Source: an uncultured Anaerolineales bacterium (GTDB lineage: Bacteria; Chloroflexota; Anaerolineae; Anaerolineales; UBA6663). From it: DNA of 64,000 bases. A program made the translations under genes and the position numbers. Shown here piece by piece: positions 40,581-59,915 of the stretch; the stretch's first letter is position 1; every line of letters begins with the position of its first letter. The notes under the pieces were generated by a model that saw only the letters and a list, made by a program, of their open reading frames with translations, was not told the origin of the DNA and did not search any database. Location: NCBI GenBank assembly GCA_937952305.1, contig CALFZO010000053.1, forward strand, positions 14,401 through 78,400, given 5' to 3'.

Positions 40581-41930
40581 ATGCAAACCCTGCCGAACGC
40601 CCTCCCCGCCCAGCCGCTGCCGGCCCGCGCGCCCTGGCTGGCCTTCGGCCGCGCTGCCATCGGCGGCCTGGCCGTGCTCACGCTGGCCCTGGTGATAGCG
40701 GGCCTGCCGGCGCGGCTGGAACAACTGCTGGACCTGGCCCGCCAGAACCAGCGGGCGCTGAGCGATCTGCAGATTTCGGCCGAGGCCTACGCCGGCTACC
40801 TGCTGGCGCTGGACCTGGTGGTGGTGGCCGCGCACCTCGGCATCGCGTTCTTCGTGGCCGGCTGGTGCCGCACGCAGGCGCGCATGGCGCTGCTGGTGGC
40901 GGCGGCCCTGGTGACCAACGGCGCCCTGGTGCCGCTGGCGGCCAGCTACACCGACATCGCTTTGCCGGCGGCCTGGCGCTTGCTCGTGGAACTGGCCATC
41001 CTGGCCGGCCTGTCCACTGGGCCGCTGCTCCTCTTCGCGTTTCCGGACGGCCGCTTTGTGCCAGGTTGGACCGCCTGGCTGGCGGGAGCCTGGATCGCGT
41101 GGGTGGTGGCCGGCCTGCTCGGACCGGCCGGGGCCTGGAGCTTCCGGACGTGGCCGGCCGGGCTCGTGCTGGTGGTGCTGCTGGCGTTCGTGGCCCTGGG
41201 CATCTACGCCCAAATCCATCGTTACCTGAAAGTCTCCAACCAGGTCGAGCGCCAGCAGACCAAGTGGGCCGTGGTCGGGCTGACTGCGGCCGTGGCCGGG
41301 CCGTTCGCGTACTTCGTCCCGTTCGTGCTCTTCCCGTCGCTGCGCCAGGGCGGCGTGCCCAACTTCTTTCACCAACTCATCGGTCCGCAGTTCTTCACCA
41401 CGGTCGCGCTCACGCGCCTGGCCGGCGCCACCGCGCTGACCCTGGTGCTGCTGGCCTTCCCGCTCTCGTTCGCCGTGGCCGTCCTGCGCTACCGGCTGTG
41501 GGACATCGACCTGATCATCCGGCGCACGCTGGTGTACTCGGTGCTGACGGCGCTGTTGGCCCTGGCCTATCTGGTCCTGGTCATCGCGCTGCAGAGCCTC
41601 CTGCGCGGCGTGGCCGGCGAGGAGTCGCCGCTGGCCGTGGTCGTCTCGACGCTGGCGATTGCCGCCCTGGCCGCGCCGCTGCGCCGGCGTGTGCAGACCG
41701 CCATCGACCAGCGCTTCTACCGGCACGCCTACGACTCGGCCCGCACGCTGGCCGGCTTCGCCCAGACGGTGCGCGACGAGACCGACCTGGACGCGATGGC
41801 GGCCCGGCTGGTGACAGTGGTGGCCGACACGATGCAGCCCGAACACGTCACGCTGTGGCTCAAGCCGCTGTCCGACCTGCGCCCGGTGCGGACACGCCCG
41901 GCCGCGCCCGGTGAGCCGCGCCCGCGTTAG
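40581..41930 (+). CDS. Orphan multi-TM sensor-like membrane protein, paralogue 1 of 6 (no output domain)
   Basis: 449 aa with about 10 predicted TM helices. Family signature: VERQQTKW ... LRYRLWDIDLIIRRTLVYSVLTALLALAYLVLV ... LAVVVSTLAIAALAAPLRRRVQTAIDQRFYRHAYDSARTLAGFAQTVRDETDLDAMAARLVTVVADTMQPEHVTLWLKP, then the protein ends. Confidence 0.8.
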   Translation: MQTLPNALPAQPLPARAPWLAFGRAAIGGLAVLTLALVIAGLPARLEQLLDLARQNQRALSDLQISAEAYAGYLLALDLVVVAAHLGIAFFVAGWCRTQARMALLVAAALVTNGALVPLAASYTDIALPAAWRLLVELAILAGLSTGPLLLFAFPDGRFVPGWTAWLAGAWIAWVVAGLLGPAGAWSFRTWPAGLVLVVLLAFVALGIYAQIHRYLKVSNQVERQQTKWAVVGLTAAVAGPFAYFVPFVLFPSLRQGGVPNFFHQLIGPQFFTTVALTRLAGATALTLVLLAFPLSFAVAVLRYRLWDIDLIIRRTLVYSVLTALLALAYLVLVIALQSLLRGVAGEESPLAVVVSTLAIAALAAPLRRRVQTAIDQRFYRHAYDSARTLAGFAQTVRDETDLDAMAARLVTVVADTMQPEHVTLWLKPLSDLRPVRTRPAAPGEPRPR

Positions 41931-41983
41931 CCAAAAATGCCGCTGCGACGGCCACTCACCTAAAGGGGTGCAACACAACCACC

Positions 41984-43537: not shown

Positions 43538-43648
43538 CCGGCGCCGAGCGCCAAACCCGAGGAAGCGGGCCGCGGGGGCTTGGTAACGCTTTTCGTAACG
43601 GCCAGGGGACGGACTGGCCGTATCCTACTGCCAAGCTGGAGTCCGAAC

Positions 43649-45130
43649 ATGACACCTGAGAGCGGGTTTGATTTGATCGTGGTCGGTGGCGGCCCCGCCG
43701 GCGTAACCGCGGCGCTGCGCGCCCGGGAACTGGGCGCCAGCGTGGCCCTGGTGGAGCGCGGCCGGCTGGGCGGCACCTGCACCAACGACGGCTGCGCGCC
43801 GACGCGCGTGCTGGCCAAGGCCGCGCGCCTGGTCCGCGACGCCGAGCAGTTCGACGAGTACGGGCTGACGCCCCACCAGCCGGAGGTAGATCTGCCCCGG
43901 CTGCTGGCGCGCACCCAGCAAGTGGTCTACCGCCTGCAGGAGAAGAAGCAGCTCATCGACCACCTGGCCGGCACGGGCGTGGCCGTGTACGCGGACGCCG
44001 GCCCGGCGCGCTTTGCGGACGCCCGCACCCTGGCCCTGGCGGATGGGCGCACCCTGACCGGCGACAAATTCATCCTGGCGGCCGGCGGCCACGCCCGGCG
44101 TCTGCCCTTCCCCGGCGCCGAACTGGCCCTGACGCACAGCGACGTCTGGACGCTCACGCGCCTGCCGCGCTCGCTGGCCGTGGTCGGCGCGGCGGCCACC
44201 GGCTGCCAGTTAGCGTCCATCTTCGCGGCCTTCGGGACCGAGGTCCATCTGCTGGAAGTGCTGCCGCGCCTCGTGCCGGCCGAGGACGAGGCCGTGTCGG
44301 CGGCGCTGACCGCTGCCTTCCAGGCGCGCGGCCTGGACGTGGTCACCGGCCTGGCGGGCGTGGACCGGATCGAGCAGACCGGGGACGGACTCGCCCTGCA
44401 CTACCGGATGGCCGCGCAGTCGAACGGGTCCGCCAGCGAGGGGCGCGTCCTAACCGTCGAGGCCGTGGTGCTCTCGGTGGGCTGGATCGGCAATCTGGAG
44501 GCGCTCAACCTGGAAGCCGCCGGCGTCGCCACACAGCGCGGCTACGTGACCGTGGACGACACCTTGCGGACCTCAGCCGCGCACATCTGGGCGGCCGGCG
44601 ACATTACGGGGCGCATGATGCTGGTGCAGAGCGCGGGCCATGACGCGCGCGTGGCCGTGGAGAATGCCCTGCTTGGGAGCGGACGCCAGTACCGGCACAC
44701 GGTGGTCCCGCACGGCGGCTTCACCGACCCCGAGTACGGGAGCGTGGGCCTGACCGAAACCCAGGCGCTGAGCCAGCATCCGGATTGTGTCGTGGCACTG
44801 GTGCCTTACGGCGACATCGACCGGGCCGTGATCGACGACCGGACCGAGGGCTTCTGCAAGCTGATTGTGTCCCGCGGTACGCGCGAGATCCTGGGCGCGC
44901 ACGTGGTGGGCGAGCAGGCCGTGGAGATCGTGCAGATCGCGGCGGCCGGCATGGCGGCCGGGATGAAGATTGAGCAATTGGCCGAGCTGGAACTGGCCTA
45001 CCCGACCTTCACGGCCATCCTGGGCCTGGCCGCGCGCCAGATCGTGCGCACGCTGGGCCTGACGCCGCTGGCCGAGGAATGGCGCACGCTCAAGCGGTTG
45101 GCCGGGGCGGAGTGGGAGCGCGGCCAATGA
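43649..45130 (+). CDS. Class I pyridine nucleotide-disulfide oxidoreductase (dihydrolipoamide dehydrogenase / mercuric reductase-like)
   Basis: ORF 43580..45130 trimmed to ATG 43649 (GGAG 8 nt upstream): MTPESGFDLIVVGGGPAGVTAALRA...GGTCTNDGCAPTR (redox CxxxxC), a second GxGxxG in VVGAAATGCQLA, and a C-terminal dimerisation domain with AYPTFTA in place of HPT. Confidence 0.9.
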   Translation: MTPESGFDLIVVGGGPAGVTAALRARELGASVALVERGRLGGTCTNDGCAPTRVLAKAARLVRDAEQFDEYGLTPHQPEVDLPRLLARTQQVVYRLQEKKQLIDHLAGTGVAVYADAGPARFADARTLALADGRTLTGDKFILAAGGHARRLPFPGAELALTHSDVWTLTRLPRSLAVVGAAATGCQLASIFAAFGTEVHLLEVLPRLVPAEDEAVSAALTAAFQARGLDVVTGLAGVDRIEQTGDGLALHYRMAAQSNGSASEGRVLTVEAVVLSVGWIGNLEALNLEAAGVATQRGYVTVDDTLRTSAAHIWAAGDITGRMMLVQSAGHDARVAVENALLGSGRQYRHTVVPHGGFTDPEYGSVGLTETQALSQHPDCVVALVPYGDIDRAVIDDRTEGFCKLIVSRGTREILGAHVVGEQAVEIVQIAAAGMAAGMKIEQLAELELAYPTFTAILGLAARQIVRTLGLTPLAEEWRTLKRLAGAEWERGQ

Positions 45131-46383
45131 AACCTCTGGCCTGGGCGATTTTCGCGCTGGCCACCCTGAGCGGCCTGGCCGGAGCGGGCGTGGCGCTGGG
45201 CCGCGCCGAAACGGCGAACTCGCTAGTGACGATCGTTGACCTGAGCGCGTGGGTGAGCATGCCGCTCGCCTTCGGCGGCGTCGGCGCACTGATCGTCTCC
45301 CGGCTGCCGCGCCAGCCGATCGGCTGGCTGCTGCTCTGCCCGGCCGCCCTGTCCGGGGGTATCGTCCCGCTGACTCTCTATCTGCAAGCGCTGGCCGCGG
45401 CCCCGGCGCCGCCGCCGGCCAGCCTGCCGCTGTTGTTGCTGCTCTGGTTCTCCAACTGGGGCTGGCTGCTGCTGATCCAGCCGATCGGCCTGATCGCACT
45501 GCTCTTCCCGACCGGCCGGCCGCCCGGGTCGCGCTGGGGCTGGCTGCTGCCGGCGACGGCCGCCCTGGCGGCGGCCTTTATCATCGTCGTGACGCTGCAG
45601 CGCCAGATCGCCTGGCCGGACGACCCGCGCCTCGCGCTGGCCAACCCGCTCGGCCTGCTCGACCAGGCGGCGGCCGAGCAGGGTGTCGTGGTCTGGATCG
45701 GCTGCCAGGCGCTGATCATGGCCCTCTCGGGGGCCGCCTTGCTGGCCCGCTTCCGCCGCGCCGACCCCGTCGAGAAGGCGCAGATCCGCTGGCTGCTCAG
45801 CGCCAGCGGCCTCTTCCTGACGATCTACATCCTCAGCCAGGTCAGCGGCGCTGGCGGCAGCGAGGGCCTGGCCGGCGACCTGAGCGCCACCGCTCTCAAC
45901 CTGACCCTGCCGCTCATCCCAATCGCCATCGGCATCGCCATTCTGCGGCACCGGCTGTTCGACATCGACCTGATCATCCGGCGCACACTGATCTATTCCA
46001 CGCTCACCGCCCTGCTGGCGCTGACCTACTTCGGCCTGGTGCTCGTGCTTCAAGGCGCGGTCGGCGCGCTGGGCGGCGCGCGCTCAGAGTGGATCACGGT
46101 CGCGTCCACGCTGGCTGTGGCCGCGCTGGTCGCGCCCCTGCGCGCGCGCGTCCAGGCCTTCATCGACCGGCGCTTTTTCCGCCGCAAGTACGACGCGGCG
46201 CGCACGCTGGCCGGCTTCGCGGCCGTGGCCCGCGATGAAACTGATCTGGGCGTGTTGACCGGCAAACTGGCCGGCGTCGTCCAGGGGACGATGGAGCCGG
46301 AGACGGTCGGCGTGTGGCTGAGACCGTCATCCCCCGGCCTGCCTCTCAACGACCAGGAAGACCTCAGCGCCTGGAGGACGTGA
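45127..46383 (+). CDS. Orphan multi-TM sensor-like membrane protein, paralogue 2 of 6
   Basis: ORF 45079..46383 trimmed to ATG 45127 (ATGA overlap with the preceding stop): MKPLAWAIFALATLSGLAG... VEKAQIRW ... LRHRLFDIDLIIRRTLIYSTLTALLALTYFGLV ... IDRRFFRRKYDAARTLAGFAAVARDETDLGVLTGKLAGVVQGTMEPETVGVWLRP, ending soon after. Confidence 0.8.
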   Translation: MKPLAWAIFALATLSGLAGAGVALGRAETANSLVTIVDLSAWVSMPLAFGGVGALIVSRLPRQPIGWLLLCPAALSGGIVPLTLYLQALAAAPAPPPASLPLLLLLWFSNWGWLLLIQPIGLIALLFPTGRPPGSRWGWLLPATAALAAAFIIVVTLQRQIAWPDDPRLALANPLGLLDQAAAEQGVVVWIGCQALIMALSGAALLARFRRADPVEKAQIRWLLSASGLFLTIYILSQVSGAGGSEGLAGDLSATALNLTLPLIPIAIGIAILRHRLFDIDLIIRRTLIYSTLTALLALTYFGLVLVLQGAVGALGGARSEWITVASTLAVAALVAPLRARVQAFIDRRFFRRKYDAARTLAGFAAVARDETDLGVLTGKLAGVVQGTMEPETVGVWLRPSSPGLPLNDQEDLSAWRT

Positions 46384-46787
46384 TGGACACAGCCAGCAAG
46401 GTGCTCGTCGCAAGCGGGGTGCTCAACCTGGCCTTCGGCCTGCTGGTGGGCGCGCTGCTGGCCGTCTTGCGGACCCGGAATCCGGAGGCCGAGCACCGCT
46501 ACCTGCTCACGGCTCACAAGGCCGGCCTGCAGCAGGGCCTGATGCTGCTCGGCCTGACCTGGGCCGTAGCGCTCTCGCCGCTGGCGGCGGGCACAGAGAC
46601 TCTGGCCGCCGGCTTGCTGGCGGCCTCCAGCGCCTTCCTGGACCTGGCGGCCGTGGTCAACTGGGCGCTGCGCGTCGGTGACGAGTTCAAGGCCAGGTCG
46701 CCGGGCCTGATCGTGGGCGGGGTCTCGGCCGCGCTCTCGATGCCGGGGCTGGCCATCCTGGCCTGGGGCGTCTTTCAGGGGCTGTGA
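46383..46787 (+). CDS. Hypothetical 4-TM membrane protein
   Basis: ORF 46314..46787 trimmed to ATG 46383 (TGATG overlap with the previous stop): MDTASKVLVASGVLNLAFGLLVGALLAVL.... No family recognised. Confidence 0.6.
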   Translation: MDTASKVLVASGVLNLAFGLLVGALLAVLRTRNPEAEHRYLLTAHKAGLQQGLMLLGLTWAVALSPLAAGTETLAAGLLAASSAFLDLAAVVNWALRVGDEFKARSPGLIVGGVSAALSMPGLAILAWGVFQGL

Positions 46788-46793
46788 AGCATC

Positions 46794-48077
46794 ATGCAAC
46801 CGGCCGCTTCCCCCCGCTCTCGTCTCTGGCTGGCCTGGGGGCTGTGCGCCGCAGCCGGTCTGATCCTGGCGGCCGACGTCCTGCTCACGCTGGCCTCCGG
46901 ACTGACGCCGGAGGCCGCCTTCACCGAAGCGCTCTTCGTCCTGCCCGTCTTCGCCTATAGCGTTCTGGGCGCTCTGATCGTCACCTATCGGTCCGAGAAC
47001 CGCGTCGGCTGGCTGCTCCTGGCCGGCGGCCCGCTGCTGGCGCTGAGCCTCCTGGCGGACGATACGCTCCGCTATGGCTACACGGTCATGGCCGCCCCGC
47101 CGGCCGGCCTGGACGGTATGGCCGCGCTTTACGATACGATCGGCCTGGCGCCCGCGTACCTCTTGTTCGTCCTGCTGCCCCTGTGGTTCCCCACCGGCCG
47201 CTTCGTCTCCGCCGGCTGGCGGCGCCTGGCCTGGGGCGCGGCCGGCCTGATGTCGGCCGTGGGCCTGGCCCAGCTTTTTCTGCGGGACGCCATCGACCTC
47301 GACCCATCCCACGGGATTGCGCTCGTGGTGGACAACCCGCTGGCGCTCTCGTTCGCGCCCCCCGTCCTGGCTCGGGCGGATTGGTTTGCGATCACCACGC
47401 CGATCTTCGCGCTCAGCATCCTGGCCGGGGTGCTCTCGCAGGTCGCGCGCTACCGGCGCGCCCGCGGCGACGAGCGCCAGCAAATCAAGTGGTTCGTGTT
47501 TCTGGCCGGCGTGGTGCTCATCCCGTATATGACCCTGCTCATGGCGCAGGCCAGCCTCATCCCCGAGATCGGTGATTCGCGGCTCAGTTTCGTCTTCCAG
47601 ATCCTGGGCCTGCTGACCTTCCCGGCCGGGATCGGGGTCGCGGTCTTCAAGTACCAGCTGTATCACATCGACGTCATCATCCGCCGGACCCTGATCTATT
47701 CGACCCTGACCGGCCTGCTGGCCCTCACCTATCTGGGCTTGGTGATCTCTCTTCAGAGTGCAGTCAGCGTCTTCGGCGGCGCGCGCTCGGAGTGGATCAC
47801 GGTGGCGTCCACGCTGGCGGTCGCCGCCCTGGTGGCGCCGCTGCGCGGGCGGGTGCAGCGCTTCATCGACCGGCGCTTCTTCCGCCACAAGTACAACGCC
47901 CAGGAGGTGCTGGCCGATTTCGCCGCCGCCGCGCGCGACGAGACCGACCTGCACGCGCTGACCCGGAAACTGGCCGGCGTGGTGCGCGAGACGATGGAGC
48001 CCGAGAACTTGGGCGTGTGGCTGCGGCCGGCCGCAGACCTGTCGGGTCGCCGGGATAACAGACGCGAGGCCTCATAG
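46794..48077 (+). CDS. Orphan multi-TM sensor-like membrane protein, paralogue 3 of 6
   Basis: 427 aa: GDERQQIKW ... FKYQLYHIDVIIRRTLIYSTLTGLLALTYLGLV ... IDRRFFRHKYNAQEVLADFAAAARDETDLHALTRKLAGVVRETMEPENLGVWLRP, ending soon after. Confidence 0.8.
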   Translation: MQPAASPRSRLWLAWGLCAAAGLILAADVLLTLASGLTPEAAFTEALFVLPVFAYSVLGALIVTYRSENRVGWLLLAGGPLLALSLLADDTLRYGYTVMAAPPAGLDGMAALYDTIGLAPAYLLFVLLPLWFPTGRFVSAGWRRLAWGAAGLMSAVGLAQLFLRDAIDLDPSHGIALVVDNPLALSFAPPVLARADWFAITTPIFALSILAGVLSQVARYRRARGDERQQIKWFVFLAGVVLIPYMTLLMAQASLIPEIGDSRLSFVFQILGLLTFPAGIGVAVFKYQLYHIDVIIRRTLIYSTLTGLLALTYLGLVISLQSAVSVFGGARSEWITVASTLAVAALVAPLRGRVQRFIDRRFFRHKYNAQEVLADFAAAARDETDLHALTRKLAGVVRETMEPENLGVWLRPAADLSGRRDNRREAS

Positions 48078-48116
48078 TGGGATACGACCCGACAGGTCTA
48101 GCGTGAGGATGCGATC

Positions 48117-49022
48117 ATGCCAAGCTGGCAAAACCTCGTCCTCCATCTCTCTCAACTAGGCTTTCGGGCCTTTACCCGGCGTTTCACCGGTCTGGACGTG
48201 GCGCAAGAGCGCCGCCAGGCGGCGCTGGCGGAGAAGATGTTCAAGGTGAAGCCATCCGTTCAGATCTCGGCTGTCACCGCCGATGACGTGCCGGCGGAAT
48301 GGATTACCCCTGTTGGCCCTTTCACCGACCGGGTGGCGCTCTATGTGCACGGCGGCGCCTTCTATTCTGGGTCGCTGGCCGGGACACGCCCAGTGGCTGC
48401 CGAGGTGGCGCTGGCCGGCCAGGCGCGCGTGCTGTCGATTGACTATCGTCTGACGCCCGAACATCCTTTCCCGGCGGCGCTCGATGATGCGCGAAAGGCG
48501 TATGAATGGCTGCTGGCCGACGGCTTGGCCCCGGAAGCCATCGTGTTGGTCGGCGACTCAGCCGGCGGCAATCTGGCGCTGGCGCTGTTGATTCAACTGC
48601 GTGATCAGGGCCGGCCCTTGCCGCGGGCCGCCGTCTGCCTGTCCCCGGCCACCGACCTCACGCTGTCTGGAGATACCTGGACTTTGAATGCGCGTCGGGA
48701 CCTGTTATTGAACCCGGAGAAAATCCGGGCGGCCATCGACCTTTACCTGCGCGGCGCGGACCCGCGCACGCCGCTGGCCTCGCCGCTCTATGCCGATCTG
48801 CGCGGCCTGCCGCCGCTGTTGATCCTGGCCGGGTCGGAGGAACGCCTGCTCTCCGACGCCACGCGCTTCACCGAAAAAGCCCGGACGGCGGGCGTGACGG
48901 TAACGCTGGAAATCTGGGACGGCATGCAGCACGGCTGGCATGTCCTGCACGGCTTCCTGCCGGAGGGCTGGCGGGCGCTCGAGCGGGTCGGGGCTTTCAT
49001 TCAGGACGCCGGCCGCCCATGA
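48117..49022 (+). CDS. Alpha/beta hydrolase fold-3 esterase/lipase (HSL family)
   Basis: 301 aa with oxyanion motif VHGGAFYSGS and nucleophile elbow GDSAGGNLA. GAGGA RBS. Confidence 0.85.
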   Translation: MPSWQNLVLHLSQLGFRAFTRRFTGLDVAQERRQAALAEKMFKVKPSVQISAVTADDVPAEWITPVGPFTDRVALYVHGGAFYSGSLAGTRPVAAEVALAGQARVLSIDYRLTPEHPFPAALDDARKAYEWLLADGLAPEAIVLVGDSAGGNLALALLIQLRDQGRPLPRAAVCLSPATDLTLSGDTWTLNARRDLLLNPEKIRAAIDLYLRGADPRTPLASPLYADLRGLPPLLILAGSEERLLSDATRFTEKARTAGVTVTLEIWDGMQHGWHVLHGFLPEGWRALERVGAFIQDAGRP

Positions 49023-51821: not shown

Positions 51822-52738
51822 ACACCCTTCCGCCCCCGCCCGGCCAACTCTTCGACATCGGCGGCTACCGACTGCACCTGTGGCGGCAGGGCCACACCTC
51901 ACCTGGCGGCGCTCGGGAGAGGCAACCGATCACCGTGCTGGACAGCGGATTGGTCGGCAACTCGCTGGTCTGGGCCAATACGCTGGCGGCCCTGGCCGCC
52001 TTCACCCAAGCCGCCGCCTTCGACCGGGCCGGCTACGCCTGGAGCGATCCCGCGCCGGCCGGCACACCGCGCACCAGCGCGCAGATGGCGGCCGAACTGC
52101 GCGCCCTGCTGCGGGCGGCCGGCCTCGAGCCGCCCTACATCCTGGTCGGGCACTCGGCCGGCGCCATTCATACCCTGGTGTACACCGACCTCTACCCCGC
52201 CGAGGTGGCCGGCCTGGTGCTGGTGGACCCGTCCCACCCGGAGATGTTCACGCGCGCGCCTGGCGTCCCGGATGGCCCGGCGATTGCCCGGCCTTATCGC
52301 GCCATCGCGGCGCTGGGGAGGCTGGGTCTGCTGCGCTGGCTGGGGCCGATCTTGTTGGGGGCGCTGCTCGGCGATAGCCGGCGCCACTTGCCGCCTGAGG
52401 CCGGGCGGGCGCTGACGGCCTTCAGCCAGCGTCCGCAGGATTACGCCAATGCCGCGCGCGAGGCCCAGGACGCCAACGAGAGCTTCGCCCACGCCGCCCA
52501 GGCCCTGACGCGCCTGGGCGACCGCCCTGTGGAAGTGCTGAGCGCCGAGTGGTGGGCGACGGGCCAGGCCACGCCCATGAAGCGCGCCCTGCTGGGCCTG
52601 CACCGGGAGCTGGCCGGCCACTCGGCGCGCGGGCAGCACAGCCTCGTCGCCGGGACCGATCACGCCAACCTGCCCGTGGCGCGCCCGGACGCGATCGCCG
52701 ACGCGGTGCAGCGCATCCTGAAAGGGCGGCTGGCTTGA
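51818..52738 (+). CDS. Alpha/beta hydrolase
   Basis: 306 aa with nucleophile elbow LVGHSAGA (GxSxG). ATGA overlap with the GT stop. Confidence 0.8.
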   Translation: MNTLPPPPGQLFDIGGYRLHLWRQGHTSPGGARERQPITVLDSGLVGNSLVWANTLAALAAFTQAAAFDRAGYAWSDPAPAGTPRTSAQMAAELRALLRAAGLEPPYILVGHSAGAIHTLVYTDLYPAEVAGLVLVDPSHPEMFTRAPGVPDGPAIARPYRAIAALGRLGLLRWLGPILLGALLGDSRRHLPPEAGRALTAFSQRPQDYANAAREAQDANESFAHAAQALTRLGDRPVEVLSAEWWATGQATPMKRALLGLHRELAGHSARGQHSLVAGTDHANLPVARPDAIADAVQRILKGRLA

Positions 52739-54051
52739 CAACGCCCGGCTACCCTCAGACGCGCCTGAGCGGCTGGCGGCGCAACATCGCCCGAGCGGTG
52801 TGGCTGATGGCCATCGCGCCGATGGTGCTGGCCTTTGTCCTGGGCATCCCGATGCGCTTCAAATTCCTGAGCCGGGTCATGCCGGACGCGGCGGCCGATC
52901 CGTTTGACAACTTGATCCCCGTGCCAGACGCGATGGTGAGCACTTTCGCCGGCCACCTCGGCCCGGCTGAGGCAGAGGCCCTGGCGCGGCTGGGCTTTGA
53001 GATGACGGGCTATGCCATCGTCATCCTGGCCTTCGAAATTCTGCTAGGCCTGGTTTGCCTGGCGATTGGTTTTCTGCTGTTCTGGCGGCGCTCGGATGAT
53101 TGGCTGGCGCTGTGGTCCTCGCTCCTGCTCATCCTATTGGGGATAAGCGGCGTTTCGCTGATTGTGCCGACACTGATGACTGTGTCGGCGGTTTGGACCG
53201 TCGTCAACCTGCTGGCGGCCCTTGTAGGTATGCTGAGCAACGTACACGTGCTCTTTCTCTCGCCCGACGGGCACATGCAGCCGCGTTGGGCGTTGCCGGT
53301 CGCGGCCGGCGTCTCGGGCTACATCCTGGCGCTGGCCGGGTATGTCGGTTGGCTATCCGTCGGCCAGACCCTCAGCCCGCTGCTCCTCTTGATTTTCCCG
53401 GTGTGGATCGTCGGCCTCGGCCTGGGAGTCTATGCCCAGATCGTGCGCTACCGGCGCCTATCCACGGCTCAACAACGCCAGCAGACCAAGTGGGTGGCCG
53501 TCGGCCTGGCGACGACGACGCTGGGCTTCATCGCCAACGCCTGGCTGCTGTCGCTGGCCGGGCAGGAGCCCGGCCTGCCGCGCGTGCTGTACAGCGTGGG
53601 ACGCACGGCGACCGTGACGATATGCATGTTGTTCTTCCCCGTCTGCGTGGCGTTCGCGGTCTTGCGCTATCACCTGTGGGACATCGATCTGATCATCCGT
53701 CGCACGCTGATTTACTCCGTGCTCACCGCCCTGTTGGCGCTCACGTACTTTTCCCTGGTCCTCGGCCTGCAGAGTCTGGCCACCGCCCTCGGCGGAACGC
53801 GCACCGAATGGGTAACGGTGGCCTCCACACTGGCTGTGGCCGCGCTGGTTACGCCCCTGCGTGGGCGTGTCCAGGCTTCCATCGACCGGCGCTTCTACCG
53901 CCGCAAGTACAATGCGGCCCAAACCCTGGCCACCTTCGCGGCCGTGGCGCGGGATGAGACCAAACTAAACACGTTGACGAGCAAACTGGCCGGCGTGGTG
54001 CAGGACACCATGGAGCCCGAAAGCGTGACCGTATGGCTGAAACTTCGATAG
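52735..54051 (+). CDS. Orphan multi-TM sensor-like membrane protein, paralogue 4 of 6
   Basis: The 5' part of ORF 52549..54051 lies inside the hydrolase gene. I propose the TTG start at 52735 (TTGA overlap), giving TTPGYPQTRLSGWRRNIARAVWLMAIAPMVLAF, which mimics the R-rich/W/TM N-termini of the other paralogues. ATG 52807 is the alternative. Signature: TAQQRQQTKW ... LRYHLWDIDLIIRRTLIYSVLTALLALTYFSLV ... IDRRFYRRKYNAAQTLATFAAVARDETKLNTLTSKLAGVVQDTMEPESVTVWLKLR, then stop. Confidence 0.7.
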   Translation: MTTPGYPQTRLSGWRRNIARAVWLMAIAPMVLAFVLGIPMRFKFLSRVMPDAAADPFDNLIPVPDAMVSTFAGHLGPAEAEALARLGFEMTGYAIVILAFEILLGLVCLAIGFLLFWRRSDDWLALWSSLLLILLGISGVSLIVPTLMTVSAVWTVVNLLAALVGMLSNVHVLFLSPDGHMQPRWALPVAAGVSGYILALAGYVGWLSVGQTLSPLLLLIFPVWIVGLGLGVYAQIVRYRRLSTAQQRQQTKWVAVGLATTTLGFIANAWLLSLAGQEPGLPRVLYSVGRTATVTICMLFFPVCVAFAVLRYHLWDIDLIIRRTLIYSVLTALLALTYFSLVLGLQSLATALGGTRTEWVTVASTLAVAALVTPLRGRVQASIDRRFYRRKYNAAQTLATFAAVARDETKLNTLTSKLAGVVQDTMEPESVTVWLKLR

Positions 54052-55484
54052 ACGAACGTCGCTGGACGCGCGGCGCCTGGCTGACGGTGCTGGCGGCCGG
54101 GATATTTATCGCCCTCAACCTGGCGCATGTGGCCTACCGCTTCAGCCTGCCCAGCCTGGGCTGGGTGGTCTGGGACCCCGGCTCAAATGAAGGCCAGGGC
54201 CAATTCTGGCTGGTCACCAACGCAGTCGAAGCGCCCTCCGCGCTGCAGCCCGGCGATGTGGTGACGCACTTGGGCGCGCTGGAATTGAGCTCTTATGATG
54301 TGATGGCGGCCGACGCCTGGCCGCGCCCGGCGCAATGGCGCGTCGGCGGGCAAATCAACGTGACCGTTGAGCGTCAGGGACAGACGCTGGTCATTGCGGC
54401 GCCAGTGGTGCAATGGACTGGGCCGGCCTGGTGGCGGGCCAATGTTCTCGACCCCCGTCAGCTCTGGGAGTGGGTCGTTACGGCGCTTCTGCTCGGGCTC
54501 GTGGGCTATACGCTGGCCCATCGGCCGGGCAACCTGGCCGCGCGTTTTCTCTTTGCCGTTGGCCTGGCCCAACTCTCGATCTCGCTGAGCAACACCTTGC
54601 CGGACCATCTCGCCCTGGCGCTGGACCCGCCCGGCGCGATCAGCAAAGCGCTGTTCGGCAACATTATCTTCGCCTATCTGCTGGGGCCGGCCTTTCTGGG
54701 CTTTGCCCTCACTTTCCCCAGGCCCAAAGCCTGGATCCAACGCCAGCCACGCTGGCTGCTGGCGCCCTTTCTCCTCGGCGCCACCACCATTGTGCTCCTC
54801 GCCGTCCTGCCGGCGTACGCGAGTATCGGCTTCGGCCTGACGTTTGCGATGCTGGTGAGCGGCCTGGGGGCGCTTCTCCACTCCGGCGTTACCCAGCGCG
54901 ATGCCATCAGCCGCGCCCAACTGCGCTGGGCGGTTGGAGGGGTCTCGGTCGGCGTGAGTCTGTTCCTGTTAAACGCTCTCCTGTTTCCGGGCCAACCCCT
55001 GTACCGCGAATGGCTGAGCGCTTTGGCGAGTCTCGGTTTCCCCGTCATCGTGTTTTCGCTGACCATCGCCATCCTGCGCTACCGGCTGTTCGACATCGAC
55101 CTCATCATCCGCCGCACGCTCATCTACTCGCTGCTGACGGCGCTGTTAGCGCTGACGTATTTCGGCCTGGTGATCGGGCTGCAGGGCGTTGTCTCAGCGC
55201 TGGGAGGCGCGCGCTCGGAGTGGGTGACAGTGGCCTCGACCCTGGCCGTCGCCGCGCTGGTGGCGCCGCTGCGCGTCCGCGTCCAGCGCTTCATCGACCG
55301 GCGTTTCTACCGGCGCAAGTACGACGCCGCGCGCGTCCTGAGCGCCTTCGGCGCGGCCGCGCGGGACGAGACCGATTTGAACACCCTCACCGGCCGGCTG
55401 ACCGGCGTGGTGCAGGAGACCATGGAACCCGAGAGCGTCGGCGTATGGCTGCGGTCGGAAAACATCGATGACCACCGCCCCTGA
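54033..55484 (+). CDS. Orphan multi-TM sensor-like membrane protein, paralogue 5 of 6, with an extra PDZ-like loop domain after TM1
   Basis: 483 aa. Its start overlaps the paralogue 4 stop by 19 nt. PDZ-like stretch: LQPGDVVTHLGALELSS...WRVGGQINVTVERQGQTLVIAAPVV. Signature: ISRAQLRW ... LRYRLFDIDLIIRRTLIYSLLTALLALTYFGLV ... IDRRFYRRKYDAARVLSAFGAAARDETDLNTLTGRLTGVVQETMEPESVGVWLRS. Confidence 0.8.
   Translation: MAETSIDERRWTRGAWLTVLAAGIFIALNLAHVAYRFSLPSLGWVVWDPGSNEGQGQFWLVTNAVEAPSALQPGDVVTHLGALELSSYDVMAADAWPRPAQWRVGGQINVTVERQGQTLVIAAPVVQWTGPAWWRANVLDPRQLWEWVVTALLLGLVGYTLAHRPGNLAARFLFAVGLAQLSISLSNTLPDHLALALDPPGAISKALFGNIIFAYLLGPAFLGFALTFPRPKAWIQRQPRWLLAPFLLGATTIVLLAVLPAYASIGFGLTFAMLVSGLGALLHSGVTQRDAISRAQLRWAVGGVSVGVSLFLLNALLFPGQPLYREWLSALASLGFPVIVFSLTIAILRYRLFDIDLIIRRTLIYSLLTALLALTYFGLVIGLQGVVSALGGARSEWVTVASTLAVAALVAPLRVRVQRFIDRRFYRRKYDAARVLSAFGAAARDETDLNTLTGRLTGVVQETMEPESVGVWLRSENIDDHRP
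55290..55400 (+). repeat. Gene-conversion-like identity tract, copy A (pairs with 56539..56649)
   Basis: 110 of 111 nt are identical to 56539..56649, including a 96-nt perfect run (55305-55400 = 56554-56649). Flanking sequence in the two paralogues differs at many synonymous and non-synonymous sites. Confidence 0.85.
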
Positions 55485-56781
55485 GCGCCGCTCGGCGCGG
55501 ACCCTGTGGATCTGGTTTTTGCTGACCGCCGGCCTCGGCGTGGCCAGCCTTTTGCTCTTCGTCCGCAACGCGGACACGGCTGTGCCGAGCTCCTGGGGCG
55601 CCGTCGGCGGCGCCCGCAACAGCGCCGCCGATTGGATCGATCCCATCCAGCAAAGCCTGCTCTCGCCTCTGACCCTGAGTGCCCTGGGGGTCTTGATCCT
55701 GCGGCGGCAGCGCGGCCATCCCATCGGGCGCCTGCTCGTCACCCTGGGCTGCGTCTCCGCCCTGGCGCAATTCACCCAGGAATGGGCCGTGTATGGCTAC
55801 TACACGGCGCCGGGCGCTGCGATTGGCGCGGGGTTGGCCGCCTGGGTGACGAACTGGATTTGGATCGTGCTCTTCTTCCTCTTGCTCCTGACGGCCGCCC
55901 TGTTTCCAGACGGGCGCTTCCTATCACGCCGCTGGGGCTGGCTCACCGGCAGCCTTTTGTTTGTCTTCGCCGGGCCCATCCTGATCGCGGCCATGGGCGA
56001 GCCGCGCCTGTCGTCGGCCTTTCAGATCGCCAACCCCTTCGTCTCTGGTTTCCCAGAGGCCGTCTACTCGGCGCTCTTCCGCGTCAGCGTGGCGTTTATG
56101 CCGATCACGGCCGTCGCGGTGCTGATCGCGGCCATAGTCCGGTATCGCGCCAGCCAGGCGCGCGAGCGCCAGCAGATGAAATGGCTGCTGGCCGGCGTGG
56201 CGCTGATGGCGGCGCTGACTGTGGCCGGTTTGGGCCTCAATTTTGGGTTGGGCCAGGACCTCGGCGCTACTCTGGTGAACGCGGCCGTCTTGGGGCCGGC
56301 CCTGGGCGTTGGCGCCGCCCTGCTGCGCCATCAGCTCTACGACATCGACATCATCCTGCGCCGGACCTTGATCTACTCGACGCTCTCCGGCCTGCTGGCG
56401 CTGACGTATTTCGGCCTGGTGATCGTCCTGCAGGGGACGGTGACGACGCTGGGCGGGGCGCGCTCGGAGTGGGTGACGGTGGCCTCGACCCTGGCGGTGG
56501 CGGCCCTGTTTGCGCCGCTGCGCGCCCGGGTACAGCATTTCATCGACCGGCGCTTCTACCGGCGCAAGTACGACGCCGCGCGCGTCCTGAGCGCCTTCGG
56601 CGCGGCCGCGCGGGACGAGACCGATTTGAACACCCTCACCGGCCGGCTGGCCCAGGTGGTGGATGGGGCCCTGCAGCCGCAGACCCTCACGCTCTGGCTG
56701 AGGCCGCCGACCGAGGACCGGCCGCGGCCCGGGGCGCTTCGTAACGCAGATCGTAACGATCACGGGATGCCGGCCGGGTAG
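55468..56781 (+). CDS. Orphan multi-TM sensor-like membrane protein, paralogue 6 of 6
   Basis: 437 aa. Its start overlaps the paralogue 5 stop by 17 nt. Signature: ARERQQMKW ... LRHQLYDIDIILRRTLIYSTLSGLLALTYFGLV ... IDRRFYRRKYDAARVLSAFGAAARDETDLNTLTGRLAQVVDGALQPQTLTLWLRP, ending 25 aa later. Confidence 0.8.
   Translation: MTTAPERRSARTLWIWFLLTAGLGVASLLLFVRNADTAVPSSWGAVGGARNSAADWIDPIQQSLLSPLTLSALGVLILRRQRGHPIGRLLVTLGCVSALAQFTQEWAVYGYYTAPGAAIGAGLAAWVTNWIWIVLFFLLLLTAALFPDGRFLSRRWGWLTGSLLFVFAGPILIAAMGEPRLSSAFQIANPFVSGFPEAVYSALFRVSVAFMPITAVAVLIAAIVRYRASQARERQQMKWLLAGVALMAALTVAGLGLNFGLGQDLGATLVNAAVLGPALGVGAALLRHQLYDIDIILRRTLIYSTLSGLLALTYFGLVIVLQGTVTTLGGARSEWVTVASTLAVAALFAPLRARVQHFIDRRFYRRKYDAARVLSAFGAAARDETDLNTLTGRLAQVVDGALQPQTLTLWLRPPTEDRPRPGALRNADRNDHGMPAG
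56539..56649 (+). repeat. Gene-conversion-like identity tract, copy B (pairs with 55290..55400)
   Basis: See copy A. The comparison was made by direct alignment of the two printed sequences. Confidence 0.85.
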
Positions 56782-56793
56782 ACTGGAGACAAG

Positions 56794-58404
56794 ATGAGCG
56801 TTTGGCTGAATTCCCTGTGGAAGAAGCTCTTCGGTCCGCCGGCCGGGTCGGCCCCGGCCGATCCGGCCCCCGCCCCGCCGGTGGAGGCGGGGGCGTCGCC
56901 GGCTATCCTGGATCTGGACATCGCGCCCCACGACCCGCTGGCCGCCTACTTCCAGAGCGCGCCCCATCCGGTGGAGATCGACAAGCTCAACTTCGACTCG
57001 CCGGCCCTGCGCCAGCTCAAGGCCAACGGCACCCGGCTGGTTGTCCCGCTGGTCAGCCAGGGCGAGTTGATCGGCCTGATCAACCTCGGGCCGCGCCGCA
57101 GCGAGCAGGATTACTCGGCCGACGACCGCGGCCTGCTGAGCAACCTGGCCACCCAGGCGGCCCCGGCCGTGCGTGTGGCCCAGCTCGTCCGGCAGCAGCA
57201 ACTGGAAGCGCAGGAACGCGAGCGCATGGAGCAGGAGCTGCGCGTCGCACGCCTGATCCAGCAGACGCTGCTCCCGCGCGAACTGCCGCAGCTGGCCGGT
57301 TGGAACCTCTCGGCCTACTACCAGCCGGCCCGCGCCGTCGGCGGCGACTTCTACGACTTTATCCGCCTGGAGGACGGCCGGCTGGTGCTGATCATCGGCG
57401 ACGTGACCGACAAGGGTGTGCCGGCGGCCCTGGTGATGGCCACCACGCGCAGCATCCTGCGCTCCGGCGCCCAGCGCTGGGCCTCGCCCGGCCAGGTCCT
57501 GCAGTACGCCAACGACATGCTGGTGGGCGACATCCCGCCCAAGATGTTCGTCACCTGCCTGTACGCCCTGCTCGACCCAGCCAGCGGAAACCTGGTGTAT
57601 GCCAATGCCGGCCACGACTTGCCCTACCGCCGCCACCGCGACGGCGTGGCCGAGATGCGCGCCATCGGCATGCCGCTCGGCCTGCTGCCCGGCATGGTCT
57701 ACGACGAACAAACCGTGCAGCTGGAACCCGGCGACAGCGTGCTGCTGTACAGCGACGGCCTGGTGGAGGCCCACAATCCGCAGCGCGAGATGTTCGGGTT
57801 CCCGCGCCTGCAGGCGTGCCTGACCCAGCATCCCGGCGGCGCCGGCCTGGTGGATTACCTGCTGGCCGAACGGGCCGGCTTTGTCGGCCCGGACTGGGAC
57901 CAGGAGGACGACACGGCTCTGGTCATCCTGCAGCGCGAGGCCGCCGCCGACGACGGCCTGCGCCCGCTGGCCTCCTTTGATTGGCCCAGCGAGCCCGGCA
58001 ACGAGCGCCTGGCGATGGAGAAGGTGGCCGCGGTGGTGCGCGCGGCCGTAGACCTGCCGCCGGCGCGCCTGGAGCGCCTGAAGACGGCCGTGGCCGAGGC
58101 GACTATGAACGCCATGGAGCACGGCCACAAGTACCAGCCCGAGCTCACCGTGCACTTCGAGGTGCGCGCCTCGGCGACGCGCCTGGCCGTGCAGATCACC
58201 GACCACGGCGGCCAGCCCATGCCGCGCGCGCAGACGCCGGACCTGGACGCCAAGCTGGCCGGGCAGCAATCGCCGCGCGGCTGGGGCCTGTTCCTGATCG
58301 AGAAGATGGTGGATGAACTCAATGTGACCACGGACGGCCAGCACCACACGGTCGAGTTGGTCATGCACATACCGGAGGCTGCGCATGGCCACCAAGATGC
58401 TTGA
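56794..58404 (+). CDS. Soluble fusion protein: GAF-like C-terminal half + SpoIIE/PP2C phosphatase + RsbW-like HATPase Ser-kinase domain
   Basis: 536 aa, with GGAG 8 nt upstream. N-terminus: VVPLVSQGELIGLINLGPRRSEQDYSADDRGLLSNLATQAAPAVRVAQLV. PP2C motifs: RLIQQTLLP, VGGDFYDF, IIGDVTDKGVPAAL, LLYSDGLVEA, DDTALVIL. Kinase N-box AEATMNAMEHG and G-box GWGLFLIEKMVDEL. Confidence 0.9.
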   Translation: MSVWLNSLWKKLFGPPAGSAPADPAPAPPVEAGASPAILDLDIAPHDPLAAYFQSAPHPVEIDKLNFDSPALRQLKANGTRLVVPLVSQGELIGLINLGPRRSEQDYSADDRGLLSNLATQAAPAVRVAQLVRQQQLEAQERERMEQELRVARLIQQTLLPRELPQLAGWNLSAYYQPARAVGGDFYDFIRLEDGRLVLIIGDVTDKGVPAALVMATTRSILRSGAQRWASPGQVLQYANDMLVGDIPPKMFVTCLYALLDPASGNLVYANAGHDLPYRRHRDGVAEMRAIGMPLGLLPGMVYDEQTVQLEPGDSVLLYSDGLVEAHNPQREMFGFPRLQACLTQHPGGAGLVDYLLAERAGFVGPDWDQEDDTALVILQREAAADDGLRPLASFDWPSEPGNERLAMEKVAAVVRAAVDLPPARLERLKTAVAEATMNAMEHGHKYQPELTVHFEVRASATRLAVQITDHGGQPMPRAQTPDLDAKLAGQQSPRGWGLFLIEKMVDELNVTTDGQHHTVELVMHIPEAAHGHQDA

Positions 58405-59908: not shown

Positions 59909-59915
59909 GGCCGCC

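What the first reader, a model, noticed from the sequence alone, without database searches (positions are those of the whole stretch)
40581..58404. Six output-less paralogous membrane sensor modules arrayed upstream of a single soluble phosphatase/kinase: a possible many-inputs, one-output split sensor
Six plus-strand genes (40581, 45127, 46794, 52735, 54033, 55468) encode proteins with about 10 TM helices. Their N-terminal and loop regions diverge, but they share a conserved C-terminal module. That module runs RY+L(F/W/Y)DID(L/I/V)I(I/L)RRTL(I/V)YS.LT.LLALTY.GLV, then STLA(V/I)AAL..PLR.RVQ..IDRRF(Y/F)R.KY(D/N)A, then (A/V)RDET.L..L...L..VV...M.P....(V/L)WL(R/K). All six stop within 2-25 aa of the WL(R/K) strand, so none has a kinase, cyclase or phosphatase output. 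From my recollection of homologous families, not verifiable here, this module normally continues into a GAF-like region and an output domain. The last three paralogues overlap each other (19 nt and 17 nt). Twelve nt after paralogue 6 comes a soluble protein with no TM and no N-terminal half of that region. It begins with what looks like the distal half of it (VVPLVSQGELIGLINLGPRRSEQDYSADDRGLLSNLATQAAPAVRVAQLV), followed by SpoIIE-PP2C and an RsbW-like kinase domain. One reading is a split architecture in which alternative membrane modules dock onto or complement one shared output protein. Another is a set of decoy or competitor sensors.
Basis: partly seen in the sequence, partly recalled or inferred. 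Interest (0 to 1): 0.8.

Follow-up and report, generated by a model that had tools for sequence, protein, structure and literature searches.

The report
GAF sensor domain split across genes
Six membrane proteins each end with the first helix and strand of a GAF sensor domain, and a nearby soluble phosphatase-kinase begins with the rest of that domain, so several alternative membrane sensors probably plug into one shared output enzyme.

Summary
Six plus-strand genes encode multi-pass membrane proteins. Their N-terminal parts are only about 30% identical, but they share a 132-aa C-terminal module, and all stop 2-24 aa after WL(R/K). Twelve nt after the sixth comes a 536-aa soluble protein: partial GAF, PP2C (SpoIIE-type) phosphatase and RsbW-like kinase. 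Two STAS genes follow.

The key result is that natural fused homologues exist in Rubrobacter (about 770-915 aa). In them Pfam GAF profiles align end to end, starting inside the module tail (ETDL...WLK) and running straight into the sequence that opens the window's phosphatase. The gene boundary therefore cuts a GAF domain after helix 1 and strand 1.

The split form is not a pseudogene:
- 24,197 representative proteins match the module.
- About 140 of the best 150 end right after it.
- 175 of 178 copies in 78 genome loci end within 30 aa of it.
- Arrays of 1-9 copies precede the phosphatase-STAS-STAS operon across Chloroflexota.

A modelled tail-phosphatase chimera folds as a full GAF. The phosphatase alone gives about half of one.

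Physical docking in trans is inferred, not shown. Most family members elsewhere are not next to such a phosphatase. I rate this a new variant of partner-switching signalling, and apparently undescribed.

The parts
40581..41930 (+). Membrane paralogue 1 (449 aa). Conserved module at 41472-41867; the GAF helix1-strand1 tail is about 41754-41867.
   Evidence: module HMM 220 bits, 20 aa after the module. Its orthologue in MAG H61_599 is 70% identical in the N-terminal part and 83% in the module.
45127..46383 (+). Membrane paralogue 2 (418 aa; the ORF could start at 45079). Module at 45931-46326.
   Evidence: 245 bits, 18 aa after the module
46794..48077 (+). Membrane paralogue 3 (427 aa). Module at 47634-48029.
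   Evidence: 243 bits, 15 aa after the module. Weak match to the TIGR02916 PrsK profile, positions 137-347.
52735..54051 (+). Membrane paralogue 4 (438 aa). Module at 53650-54042. Its start overlaps the upstream hydrolase gene by 4 nt.
   Evidence: 238 bits, 2 aa after the module
54033..55484 (+). Membrane paralogue 5 (483 aa). Module at 55062-55457. It carries an extra ~110-aa loop after the first TM segment and overlaps paralogue 4 by 19 nt.
55468..56781 (+). Membrane paralogue 6 (437 aa). Module at 56314-56706. It overlaps paralogue 5 by 17 nt. A TAG stop and 12 nt separate it from the next gene, which is in the same frame.
56794..58404 (+). Soluble output protein (536 aa).
- Conserved N-terminal peptide: residues 1-14, 56794-56835.
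- Variable Pro/Ala linker: residues 15-38.
- GAF lacking helix 1 and strand 1: residues 39-126, 56908-57171.
- Helical linker: to about residue 160.
- PP2C: residues 194-381, 57373-57936.
- RsbW-like kinase: residues 398-523, 57985-58362.
   Evidence: A GGAG motif lies 7 nt before the ATG.
58385..58735 (+). STAS protein A (116 aa), the presumed substrate of the phosphatase and kinase. It overlaps the upstream gene by 20 nt.
   Evidence: STAS 56.5 bits; conserved Ser in the YINSTG motif
58776..59129 (+). STAS protein B (117 aa).
   Evidence: STAS 45.2 bits; conserved Ser in the YMNSSG motif
59150..60671 (+). Two tandem paralogous genes of unknown function (252 and 251 aa, 48% identical). They are conserved downstream of the STAS pair.
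   Evidence: The orthologue in L001 is 44% identical. The DUF1990 match is only weak.
60723..62174 (+). Flavin amine-oxidase-like protein (483 aa), a conserved last member of the gene cluster.

Best explanation
This is a partner-switching signalling locus in which one GAF sensor domain is divided between two polypeptides.

Shown:
- Each of the six membrane proteins is a variable multi-pass sensor region followed by a conserved pair of TM helices and a juxtamembrane helix.
- Each ends in the cytoplasm with GAF helix 1 and strand 1.
- The soluble protein starts with the remainder of that GAF. A conserved helical linker joins it to a PP2C phosphatase fused to an RsbW-like kinase. Two STAS proteins are encoded next.

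Inferred:
- The tail of a membrane paralogue docks onto the incomplete GAF, with strand 1 extending its sheet and helix 1 packing on the C-terminal helix. This recruits the enzyme to that sensor and completes the domain.
- The state of the completed GAF is passed through the linker helix to the phosphatase. This is the route described for other sensor-linker-PP2C enzymes.
- The phosphorylation state of the two STAS proteins is set in this way.
- Because all paralogues carry nearly the same tail, they would compete for, or share, one output enzyme: many inputs, one output.

The downstream target of the STAS proteins is unknown.
For: 1. Fission point mapped on natural fusions. In P0388, P0489 and P0501, Pfam GAF and GAF_3 (and GAF_2 in P0489) align over profile positions 1 to 127-135. 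The alignment starts at the module motif (ET)DLDAL and continues into EIEIAPDDP...VVPLVSQGELIGL, the sequence homologous to window residues 40-126.
2. One fused histidine-kinase model, TIGR02916, matches the paralogues at positions ~11-356 and the phosphatase N-terminus at 408-472.
3. The soluble family never carries the tail: 0 of 120. ORFs were taken stop to stop, so no upstream extension is hidden.
4. The end point is conserved. 175 of 178 complete modules end within 30 aa, as do about 140 of the best 150 representatives.
5. Synteny. Arrays of 1-9 modules lie directly upstream of partial GAF-PP2C-kinase-STAS-STAS in Anaerolineae, Chloroflexia, Ardenticatenaceae, Caldilineae, Dehalococcoidia and one Rubrobacter locus. 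The phosphatase is present in 13 of 32 full 20-kb loci. About 0.5% would be expected for a single-copy gene.
6. Purifying selection.
- N-terminal regions of the window paralogues are ~30% identical, modules 54-83%.
- Synonymous sites are at the codon-usage baseline for 14 of 15 pairs.
- Tails are equally intact whether or not a phosphatase is nearby (91.4 vs 90.4 bits).
- The partial GAF is as conserved as the catalytic domain (0.80 vs 0.79), and its C-terminal helix and linker are the most conserved part (0.88).
7. Modelling.
- The chimera has pLDDT 84-88 on the tail, with strand 54-58 assigned.
- Its 22 PDB hits at E<=1e-3 are all GAF-containing proteins.
- TM-score to the Lcd1 GAF (5w10) is 0.63 for the chimera and 0.36 for the phosphatase alone, which has no hit at E<=1e-3.
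8. The linker-mediated control of PP2C by N-terminal sensor domains, GAF included, is published (PMC12143880).
Against: - No interaction was measured or predicted as a true two-chain complex.
- The chimera model used fused homologues in its alignment, so closure of the fold is partly expected from homology. No contact or PAE data were available.
- AlphaFold also models the partial GAF alone with pLDDT around 90, so it may be stable on its own.
- Adding tails to the phosphatase N-terminus raised the Pfam GAF score in only one of three chimeras.
- 19 of 32 full loci, including all eight Rubrobacteraceae ones, have module genes with no such phosphatase within 10 kb. Their neighbours are varied.
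- In the window, three of the six paralogues lie 8-16 kb away from the phosphatase, among unrelated genes.
- Whole-genome co-occurrence could not be tested.
- The phosphatase has its own conserved N-terminal amphipathic peptide, which might substitute for the missing helix. The model gives it low confidence either way.
Confidence: 0.55

Rival explanations
1. The membrane proteins work independently of the phosphatase. The tail is a relic of an old fission that has taken on another role, such as homo- or hetero-dimerisation of the membrane proteins or binding some other partner. The frequent neighbourhood with the phosphatase gene reflects shared ancestry rather than present-day interaction.
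For: - Most arrays in other genomes (19 of 32 full loci) have no such phosphatase within 10 kb, and their neighbours are varied.
- Tails are equally conserved in those orphan loci.
- The partial GAF is modelled confidently without the tail.
Against: - A helix-strand fragment of a GAF cannot be a domain by itself, yet it is under strong purifying selection across thousands of clusters.
- Modules, when clustered with the phosphatase, lie on its strand. They sit directly upstream of the separate phosphatase gene in 12 arrays and a few kb downstream of the operon in three loci.
- Natural fusions join exactly these two parts.
- The enrichment of the phosphatase near modules is roughly 80-fold over chance.
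Confidence: 0.2
2. The tails do dock, but as inhibitors or decoys. The membrane proteins sequester the phosphatase-kinase at the membrane, or hold it in an inactive state, and the signal releases it. Extra paralogues act as competitors that buffer the output rather than as separate activating inputs.
For: - The anatomical evidence is the same as for docking.
- Sequestration and release is the logic of the stressosome and of partner switching in general (PMC12143880).
- The number of tail-bearing genes greatly exceeds the single acceptor gene.
Against: - In the fused Rubrobacter proteins the same tail is a permanent part of the sensor, which argues that the completed GAF is the working state rather than an off state.
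- Nothing in the sequence tells activation from inhibition.
Confidence: 0.17
3. The split is not real. The stops would be sequencing or assembly errors or pseudogenes, or a full-length fusion would be made by stop-codon readthrough or frameshifting. Paralogue 6 and the phosphatase gene are in the same frame, separated by one TAG.
For: Paralogue 6 and gene 56794 are in frame, with a single TAG and 12 nt between them. Three other loci are also in frame.
Against: - Only 4 of 15 distinct loci are in frame, which is what chance gives, and the gaps range from 15 to 929 nt.
- The identical 536-aa protein and the same gene calls occur in an independent assembly.
- The soluble protein has its own conserved N-terminal peptide and a GGAG ribosome-binding site.
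- The end point is conserved in 175 of 178 copies.
Confidence: 0.02

Closest known systems
Sensor-linker-PP2C phosphatases of partner-switching pathways (B. subtilis RsbU and RsbP, C. difficile RsbZ with tandem GAF, S. coelicolor OsaC with GAF and PAS), as reviewed in PMC12143880
   Same: An N-terminal sensory domain, a conserved helical linker and a PPM/SpoIIE-type phosphatase acting on STAS proteins. The linker here is the most conserved part of the protein.
   Different: - The GAF here lacks helix 1 and strand 1, which are encoded at the end of separate membrane proteins.
- The phosphatase is fused to the RsbW-like kinase.
- No sigma factor gene is seen in the cluster.
Bacillus stressosome: RsbRA-RD paralogues feeding one RsbT-RsbU output (own knowledge; RsbT-RsbU part in PMC12143880)
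   Same: Several paralogous sensors with variable N-terminal parts and a conserved C-terminal part converge on one PP2C phosphatase.
   Different: - Stressosome sensors are soluble and share a complete STAS domain.
- They signal through a released kinase, RsbT.
- Here the sensors are membrane proteins that share a fragment of the acceptor's own domain.
Fused Rubrobacter proteins P0388, P0489 and P0501 (TM region, module, GAF, with or without PAS, then PP2C; 767-915 aa)
   Same: The module is 52-59% identical to the window modules, and the GAF remainder and linker are nearly the same sequence as in the window phosphatase.
   Different: - They are one polypeptide.
- They have no N-terminal peptide and no Pro/Ala linker.
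- They have no kinase domain.
- Most have a PAS domain inserted.
PrsK-type membrane sensor histidine kinases (NCBIfam TIGR02916) and the Pfam HisKA_7TM N-terminal region
   Same: The multi-pass N-terminal region followed by GAF is distantly similar. Both window halves match consecutive parts of the TIGR02916 profile.
   Different: - Scores are 16-32 bits against a cutoff of 300, so these are not members.
- The output is a histidine kinase in one chain.
- L045 is a closer fused histidine-kinase relative.
M. tuberculosis Rv1364c (PAS, PP2C, anti-sigma kinase and STAS in one chain; cited in PMC12143880)
   Same: Phosphatase and RsbW-like kinase are fused in one protein.
   Different: - The sensor is a complete PAS domain in the same chain.
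- STAS is fused rather than encoded separately.
- There are no membrane partners.

Membership tests
GAF domain (Pfam PF01590 / PF13185 / PF13492) | The profile is matched end to end within one polypeptide. | tested here: not met
   The window phosphatase matches only profile positions ~63/72-135, and the paralogues give no GAF hit. In fused homologues the match is end to end and starts in the module tail.
GAF domain (Pfam PF01590 / PF13185 / PF13492) | GAF fold (antiparallel sheet flanked by N- and C-terminal helices) once the two halves are joined. | tested here: met
   The chimera model's 22 PDB hits at E<=1e-3 are all GAF-containing proteins, with TM 0.63 to 5w10. The phosphatase alone gives 0.36 and aligns over 80-95 columns. 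This rests on a model, not a structure.
PPM/PP2C phosphatase, SpoIIE type (PF07228) | Full-length profile match and metal-binding Asp motifs. | tested here: met
   172.7 bits over profile 2-191 of 192. GGDFYD, GDVTDKG, SDG and EDD motifs can be read in the sequence.
RsbW/SpoIIAB-type serine kinase (PF13581 HATPase_c_2) | Full-length profile match with N-box and G-box motifs. | tested here: met
   78.3 bits over profile 2-126 of 127. EATMNAMEHG and DHGG motifs are present. NCBIfam anti-sigma F and RsbW models match below their cutoffs.
Partner-switching module (phosphatase, kinase, STAS antagonist) | Adjacent STAS protein(s) with the conserved phosphorylatable serine. | tested here: met
   Two STAS genes (56.5 and 45.2 bits). 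The Ser in the Y(I/M)NS(T/S)G motif is invariant in four sequences.
Partner-switching module (phosphatase, kinase, STAS antagonist) | A sigma factor or other defined target released by the switch. | tested here: not met
   No sigma factor gene was found among the annotated neighbours between 37.9 and 64 kb. The target is unknown.
PrsK histidine kinase (TIGR02916) | Score above the curated cutoff of 300 bits, and a histidine-kinase output. | tested here: not met
   16.5-32.3 bits, and no HisKA domain.
Stressosome (RsbR/RsbS/RsbT) | Sensors ending in a STAS domain, and a separate RsbT-type kinase. | tested here: not met
   The paralogues have no STAS match, and the only kinase domain is fused to the phosphatase. 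The resemblance is one of logic only.
Split-domain complementation between the membrane tails and the phosphatase | Physical association of the two chains. | not testable with these tools
   Only a single-chain chimera could be modelled. No multimer prediction, PAE or experiment was available.

The most novel reading that the evidence does not exclude
Fold complementation as a signalling principle. A genome-encoded library of alternative membrane sensors (six here, up to nine in one array elsewhere) each carries the first helix and strand of a GAF domain. The one soluble phosphatase-kinase has a working sensor domain only when one of them supplies that piece. Receptors would thus be assembled combinatorially, with different inputs competing for a single output by completing its fold.
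Probability: 0.35. Interest if true: 0.85.

Novelty: new variant of a known kind. Interest (0 to 1): 0.68.

Why it matters
Bacterial sensors are normally described as chains of complete domains. When several inputs share one output, they do so through whole-domain contacts, as in the stressosome or in chemoreceptor arrays. Here a very large family (24,197 representative proteins match the module) has no Pfam domain and carries only 'hypothetical protein' names. It ends inside a domain whose remainder opens a conserved phosphatase-kinase.

If the halves do associate, this would be a natural case of signalling by domain complementation. It would also give a simple rule for finding the partners of thousands of orphan membrane proteins in Chloroflexota and Rubrobacteraceae, groups with few studied signalling pathways. 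The hypothesis is directly testable with tail peptides and a soluble enzyme.

Tried and rejected
1. Pfam scan of artificial tail + phosphatase chimeras. Only the paralogue-1 tail extended the GAF match to profile 1-132 (37.7 vs about 30 bits). The other two tails, and a reversed-tail control, gave no gain. The test is inconclusive because the N-terminal part of GAF profiles is weakly conserved.
2. MAFFT alignments A3 and A4 placed the phosphatase's N-terminal peptide once on the tail's strand (MQPxxVSLWL) and once on its helix (TDLxxLxxxL). The two placements contradict each other. I treat the resemblance as unproven, and removed those peptides from the modelling alignment (A5).
4. Readthrough or frameshift was rejected: 4 of 15 loci are in frame, which is chance.
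5. Pseudogene or assembly error was rejected on conservation and an independent assembly.
6. Recent gene conversion as the cause of module similarity was rejected for 14 of 15 pairs, whose third positions are at the codon-usage baseline. It is real only for paralogues 5 and 6, which share a 96-nt identical run.
7. The promoter and terminator scan was uninformative: no promoter-like sites, and only weak intragenic terminator-like sites.
8. Literature searches for a split GAF domain, HisKA_7TM and PrsK found no description of this arrangement.
9. The first homologue search with the 141-aa module returned only short fragments (141-247 aa) and said nothing about fusions. The exhaustive search and the genome loci were needed for that.
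10. A PDZ assignment for the paralogue-5 loop was not supported (PDZ_2 E = 0.21).
Full report
**Observation.**
- Full-length alignment gives 32-40% identity to the first paralogue. The last 132 residues align without gaps, at 80% mean column identity with 55 invariant columns.
- The module consists of two hydrophobic helices (IDLIIRRTLIYS..LLALTY..LV and STLAVAAL..PLR), a basic juxtamembrane stretch (RVQ.FIDRRFYRRKYDA), and the tail RDETDL..L...L..VV...M.P....WL(R/K).
- The proteins stop 2-24 residues after the module.
- None has a Pfam domain above threshold.
- A crude hydropathy scan gives roughly 8-11 hydrophobic segments and a K/R-rich C-terminal stretch, so the tail is probably cytoplasmic.
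- The overlaps of 19 and 17 nt and the 12-nt gap are as stated.

**The next gene.**
Gene 56794-58404 encodes a 536-aa soluble protein. It has a complete SpoIIE/PP2C domain (172.7 bits) and a complete HATPase_c_2 domain (78.3 bits). Its GAF matches cover only the distal part of the profiles, about positions 72-135, at residues 70-126.

Two STAS genes follow, and each keeps the conserved serine. Then come two paralogous genes of unknown function and a flavin amine-oxidase-like gene. The locus is therefore a partner-switching cassette in which phosphatase and kinase are fused.

**How widespread it is.**
*The soluble protein.* It belongs to a homogeneous family of about 540 aa. All 8,000 scored candidates pass E<=1e-10, and the named ones come from Anaerolineales, Anaerolineae and Chloroflexota. 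All of those listed have the same architecture.

*The module.* An exhaustive profile search found 24,197 representative proteins at E<=1e-3 and 4,075 at E<=1e-30. About 140 of the best 150 are proteins of roughly 200-490 aa, short ones being gene fragments, that end within about 30 residues of the module. The exceptions are head-to-tail fusions of two whole paralogues, or low-complexity read-ons.

*Genome loci.* A scan of species-representative genomes returned 78 loci from Anaerolineae, Chloroflexia, Ktedonobacteria, Dehalococcoidia, Caldilineales, Ardenticatenaceae, Promineifilaceae and Rubrobacteraceae.
- I searched all stop-to-stop ORFs of these loci with HMMs for the module, the phosphatase N-terminus, PP2C, the kinase and STAS.
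- 178 complete modules have a median of 10 residues after them, and only three have more than 40.
- Modules form same-strand arrays of up to nine.
- Of 63 arrays with at least 2 kb of downstream sequence, 12 are followed directly by a separate partial GAF-PP2C-kinase gene and STAS genes. Two more are followed by a GAF within a fusion protein.
- Counting loci with full 10-kb flanks, 13 of 32 contain the phosphatase, and none of the eight Rubrobacteraceae ones does.
- A distant relative with a 66%-identical phosphatase has two modules, then the phosphatase, two STAS genes, the unknown gene and the oxidase, in the same order.

**The decisive result: natural fusions.**
One locus, L063 from a Rubrobacter MAG, has the module and the phosphatase N-terminus in a single ORF, two residues apart in HMM terms. 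Using it as a query returned more than 100 clusters of such proteins:
- TM region, module, GAF, PAS and PP2C, about 890-930 aa;
- P0501, 767 aa, without the PAS domain.

In P0388, P0489 and P0501 the Pfam GAF and GAF_3 profiles (and GAF_2 in P0489) align end to end, over positions 1 to 127-135. The alignment begins at (ET)DLDALS...VSLWL(K/R), which is the module tail. After about 20 residues it continues into EIEIAPDDP...VVPLVSQGELIGL...APAV, the sequence homologous to residues 40-126 of the window phosphatase.

The gene boundary in the window therefore falls inside a GAF domain, after its first helix and first strand.

Three further results agree with this:
- A more distant relative, L045, has the same TM region followed by a GAF and a HisKA_3 kinase.
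- The NCBIfam PrsK model matches the paralogues at profile positions ~11-356 and the phosphatase N-terminus at 408-472.
- None of 120 soluble family members contains the tail (best 5.6 bits), whereas the fusions score 44-50 bits.

**Not an artefact.**
- The identical 536-aa protein, with the same neighbouring gene calls, occurs in an independent sludge-metagenome assembly.
- Paralogue 6 and the phosphatase gene are in the same frame across a single TAG. This holds in only 4 of 15 distinct loci, and the gaps range from 15 to 929 nt, so programmed readthrough is not supported.
- The phosphatase has a GGAG motif 7 nt before its ATG.
- It also has a moderately conserved N-terminal peptide (consensus MTTxLRNxWQxLxG) that the fusions lack.

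**Selection.**
- Window paralogues 1, 3 and 5 have orthologues in the nearest MAG with 70-85% identity in the N-terminal region. Paralogues within the window share only about 30% there, so the duplications are old.
- Their modules are still 54-83% identical. Third-codon positions are at the level expected from codon usage alone for 14 of 15 pairs, so this similarity is due to purifying selection.
- Only paralogues 5 and 6 share a 96-nt identical run, which suggests local gene conversion.
- Tails are equally intact in loci with and without a phosphatase nearby.
- In the soluble family the partial GAF is as conserved as the PP2C domain (0.80 vs 0.79 majority frequency), and its last helix plus linker is the most conserved segment (0.88).

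**Modelling.**
*Chimera.* I modelled a chimera of the paralogue-5 tail and phosphatase residues 1-150. Its alignment held fused, tail-only and phosphatase-only rows.
- Mean pLDDT was 80.5.
- The tail was modelled as helix 34-49 and strand 54-58 at pLDDT 84-88, and the rest of the GAF scored above 90.
- Its 22 PDB matches at E<=1e-3 are all GAF-containing proteins, with TM 0.63 to the 171-aa Lcd1 GAF.

*Phosphatase alone.* The N-terminus by itself gives a hairpin plus helices.
- It has no PDB match at E<=1e-3.
- It aligns over 80-95 columns, with TM 0.36 to the same GAF.
- Its N-terminal peptide is of low confidence.

*Caveats.* The fused rows in the alignment make closure of the fold partly expected. 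No inter-residue confidence was available. The partial GAF alone is still modelled confidently.

**Mechanism.**
*Shown:* the anatomy, the fission point, the synteny and the selection.

*Inferred:*
- A membrane paralogue's tail docks in trans and completes the GAF.
- The signal passes through the C-terminal helix and linker to the PP2C, as described for RsbU, RsbP, RsbZ and related enzymes (PMC12143880).
- The fused kinase and the phosphatase set the phosphorylation state of the two STAS proteins.
- The six near-identical tails share or compete for one acceptor.

Whether docking activates the enzyme, tethers it or inhibits it cannot be told from sequence. The target of the STAS proteins is unknown.

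**Against.**
Most module genes elsewhere are not next to such a phosphatase, and their neighbours are varied. Three of the window's six lie 8-16 kb away, among a FecR-domain gene, a flavoprotein disulfide reductase, hydrolases and glycosyltransferases. This fits trans-acting partners, but it fits independence equally well. Genome-wide co-occurrence could not be checked.

**Novelty.**
Searches of the literature library found no description of a split GAF or of this family. The components (GAF-PP2C phosphatases, the RsbW-like kinase, STAS, PrsK-like membrane sensors) are known. The division of one domain between an expandable set of membrane proteins and one soluble enzyme is, as far as I could find, not described. 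I therefore rate it a new variant of a known kind.

Noticed in passing
window 54033-55484 (residues ~34-143 of paralogue 5): Paralogue 5 has an extra loop of about 110 aa after its first TM segment, with a PDZ-like motif (LQPGDVVTHLG). Pfam PDZ_2 reaches only E = 0.21. Some database relatives (P0242, P0249) have a similar insert. It may be a distinct input domain.
   Followed up: partly
window 55062-55457 vs 56311-56706: The modules of adjacent paralogues 5 and 6 share a 96-nt identical run, with 0.74 third-position identity. The other 14 pairs are at the codon-usage baseline. This suggests a local gene-conversion tract.
   Followed up: partly
window 56779-56796: Paralogue 6 and the phosphatase gene are in the same reading frame, separated by one TAG and 12 nt. 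The same is true in L027, L013 and L016 but not in 11 other loci, so it is probably chance.
   Followed up: yes
window 56794-56835: The phosphatase family has a moderately conserved N-terminal peptide (consensus MTTxLRNxWQxLxG) with hydrophobic residues in an amphipathic-helix pattern. A variable Pro/Ala-rich linker follows it. The fused Rubrobacter forms lack both. Its role (membrane binding, docking, or a surrogate for helix 1) is unknown.
   Followed up: partly
window 59150-59908 and 59916-60671: Two tandem paralogous genes (252 and 251 aa, 48% identical, only a weak DUF1990 match) lie between the STAS pair and an amine-oxidase-like flavoprotein gene (60723-62174). One copy plus the flavoprotein is conserved in the distant locus L001.
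   Followed up: partly
window 41984-45130; also L004 8342-9958 and L029 11318-12892: A FecR-domain protein and a pyridine-nucleotide disulfide oxidoreductase sit between paralogues 1 and 2. A similar secreted protein (not Pfam-scanned) follows the orthologous module in L004. An oxidoreductase-like ORF (not Pfam-scanned) sits inside the module array of an unrelated Chloroflexota MAG (L029).
   Followed up: no
window 48117-52738: Between paralogues 3 and 4 lie two alpha/beta hydrolases and two EryCIII/GT28-like glycosyltransferases. The last hydrolase overlaps the start of paralogue 4 by 4 nt, so it may be co-transcribed with the sensor array.
   Followed up: no
window 37944-38912 and 39610-40551: Two c-type cytochrome genes lie directly upstream of paralogue 1.
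   Followed up: no
proteins P0241, P0242, P0245, P0249 (917-961 aa): Some database proteins are head-to-tail fusions of two complete membrane paralogues, each with its own module and WL(R/K) end, joined by a low-complexity linker. They could be real fusions or lost stop codons.
   Followed up: partly
L045 585-3085: In a Rubrobacteraceae MAG, a truncated module gene lies directly upstream of a histidine kinase that has the same type of TM region fused to a GAF, HisKA_3 and HATPase_c.
   Followed up: partly
L025 1186-3039: An ORF right after a module gene has a similar multi-pass N-terminal region, but it continues into a soluble domain of about 300 aa instead of the module. The domain was not identified.
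   Followed up: no
window 55924-58485 (-), 46050-47954 (-), 40509-41993 (-): Long minus-strand ORFs (853, 634 and 494 aa) lie antisense to the sensor and phosphatase genes. They are the usual spurious ORFs of high-G+C DNA. The plus-strand genes have the homologues.
   Followed up: partly
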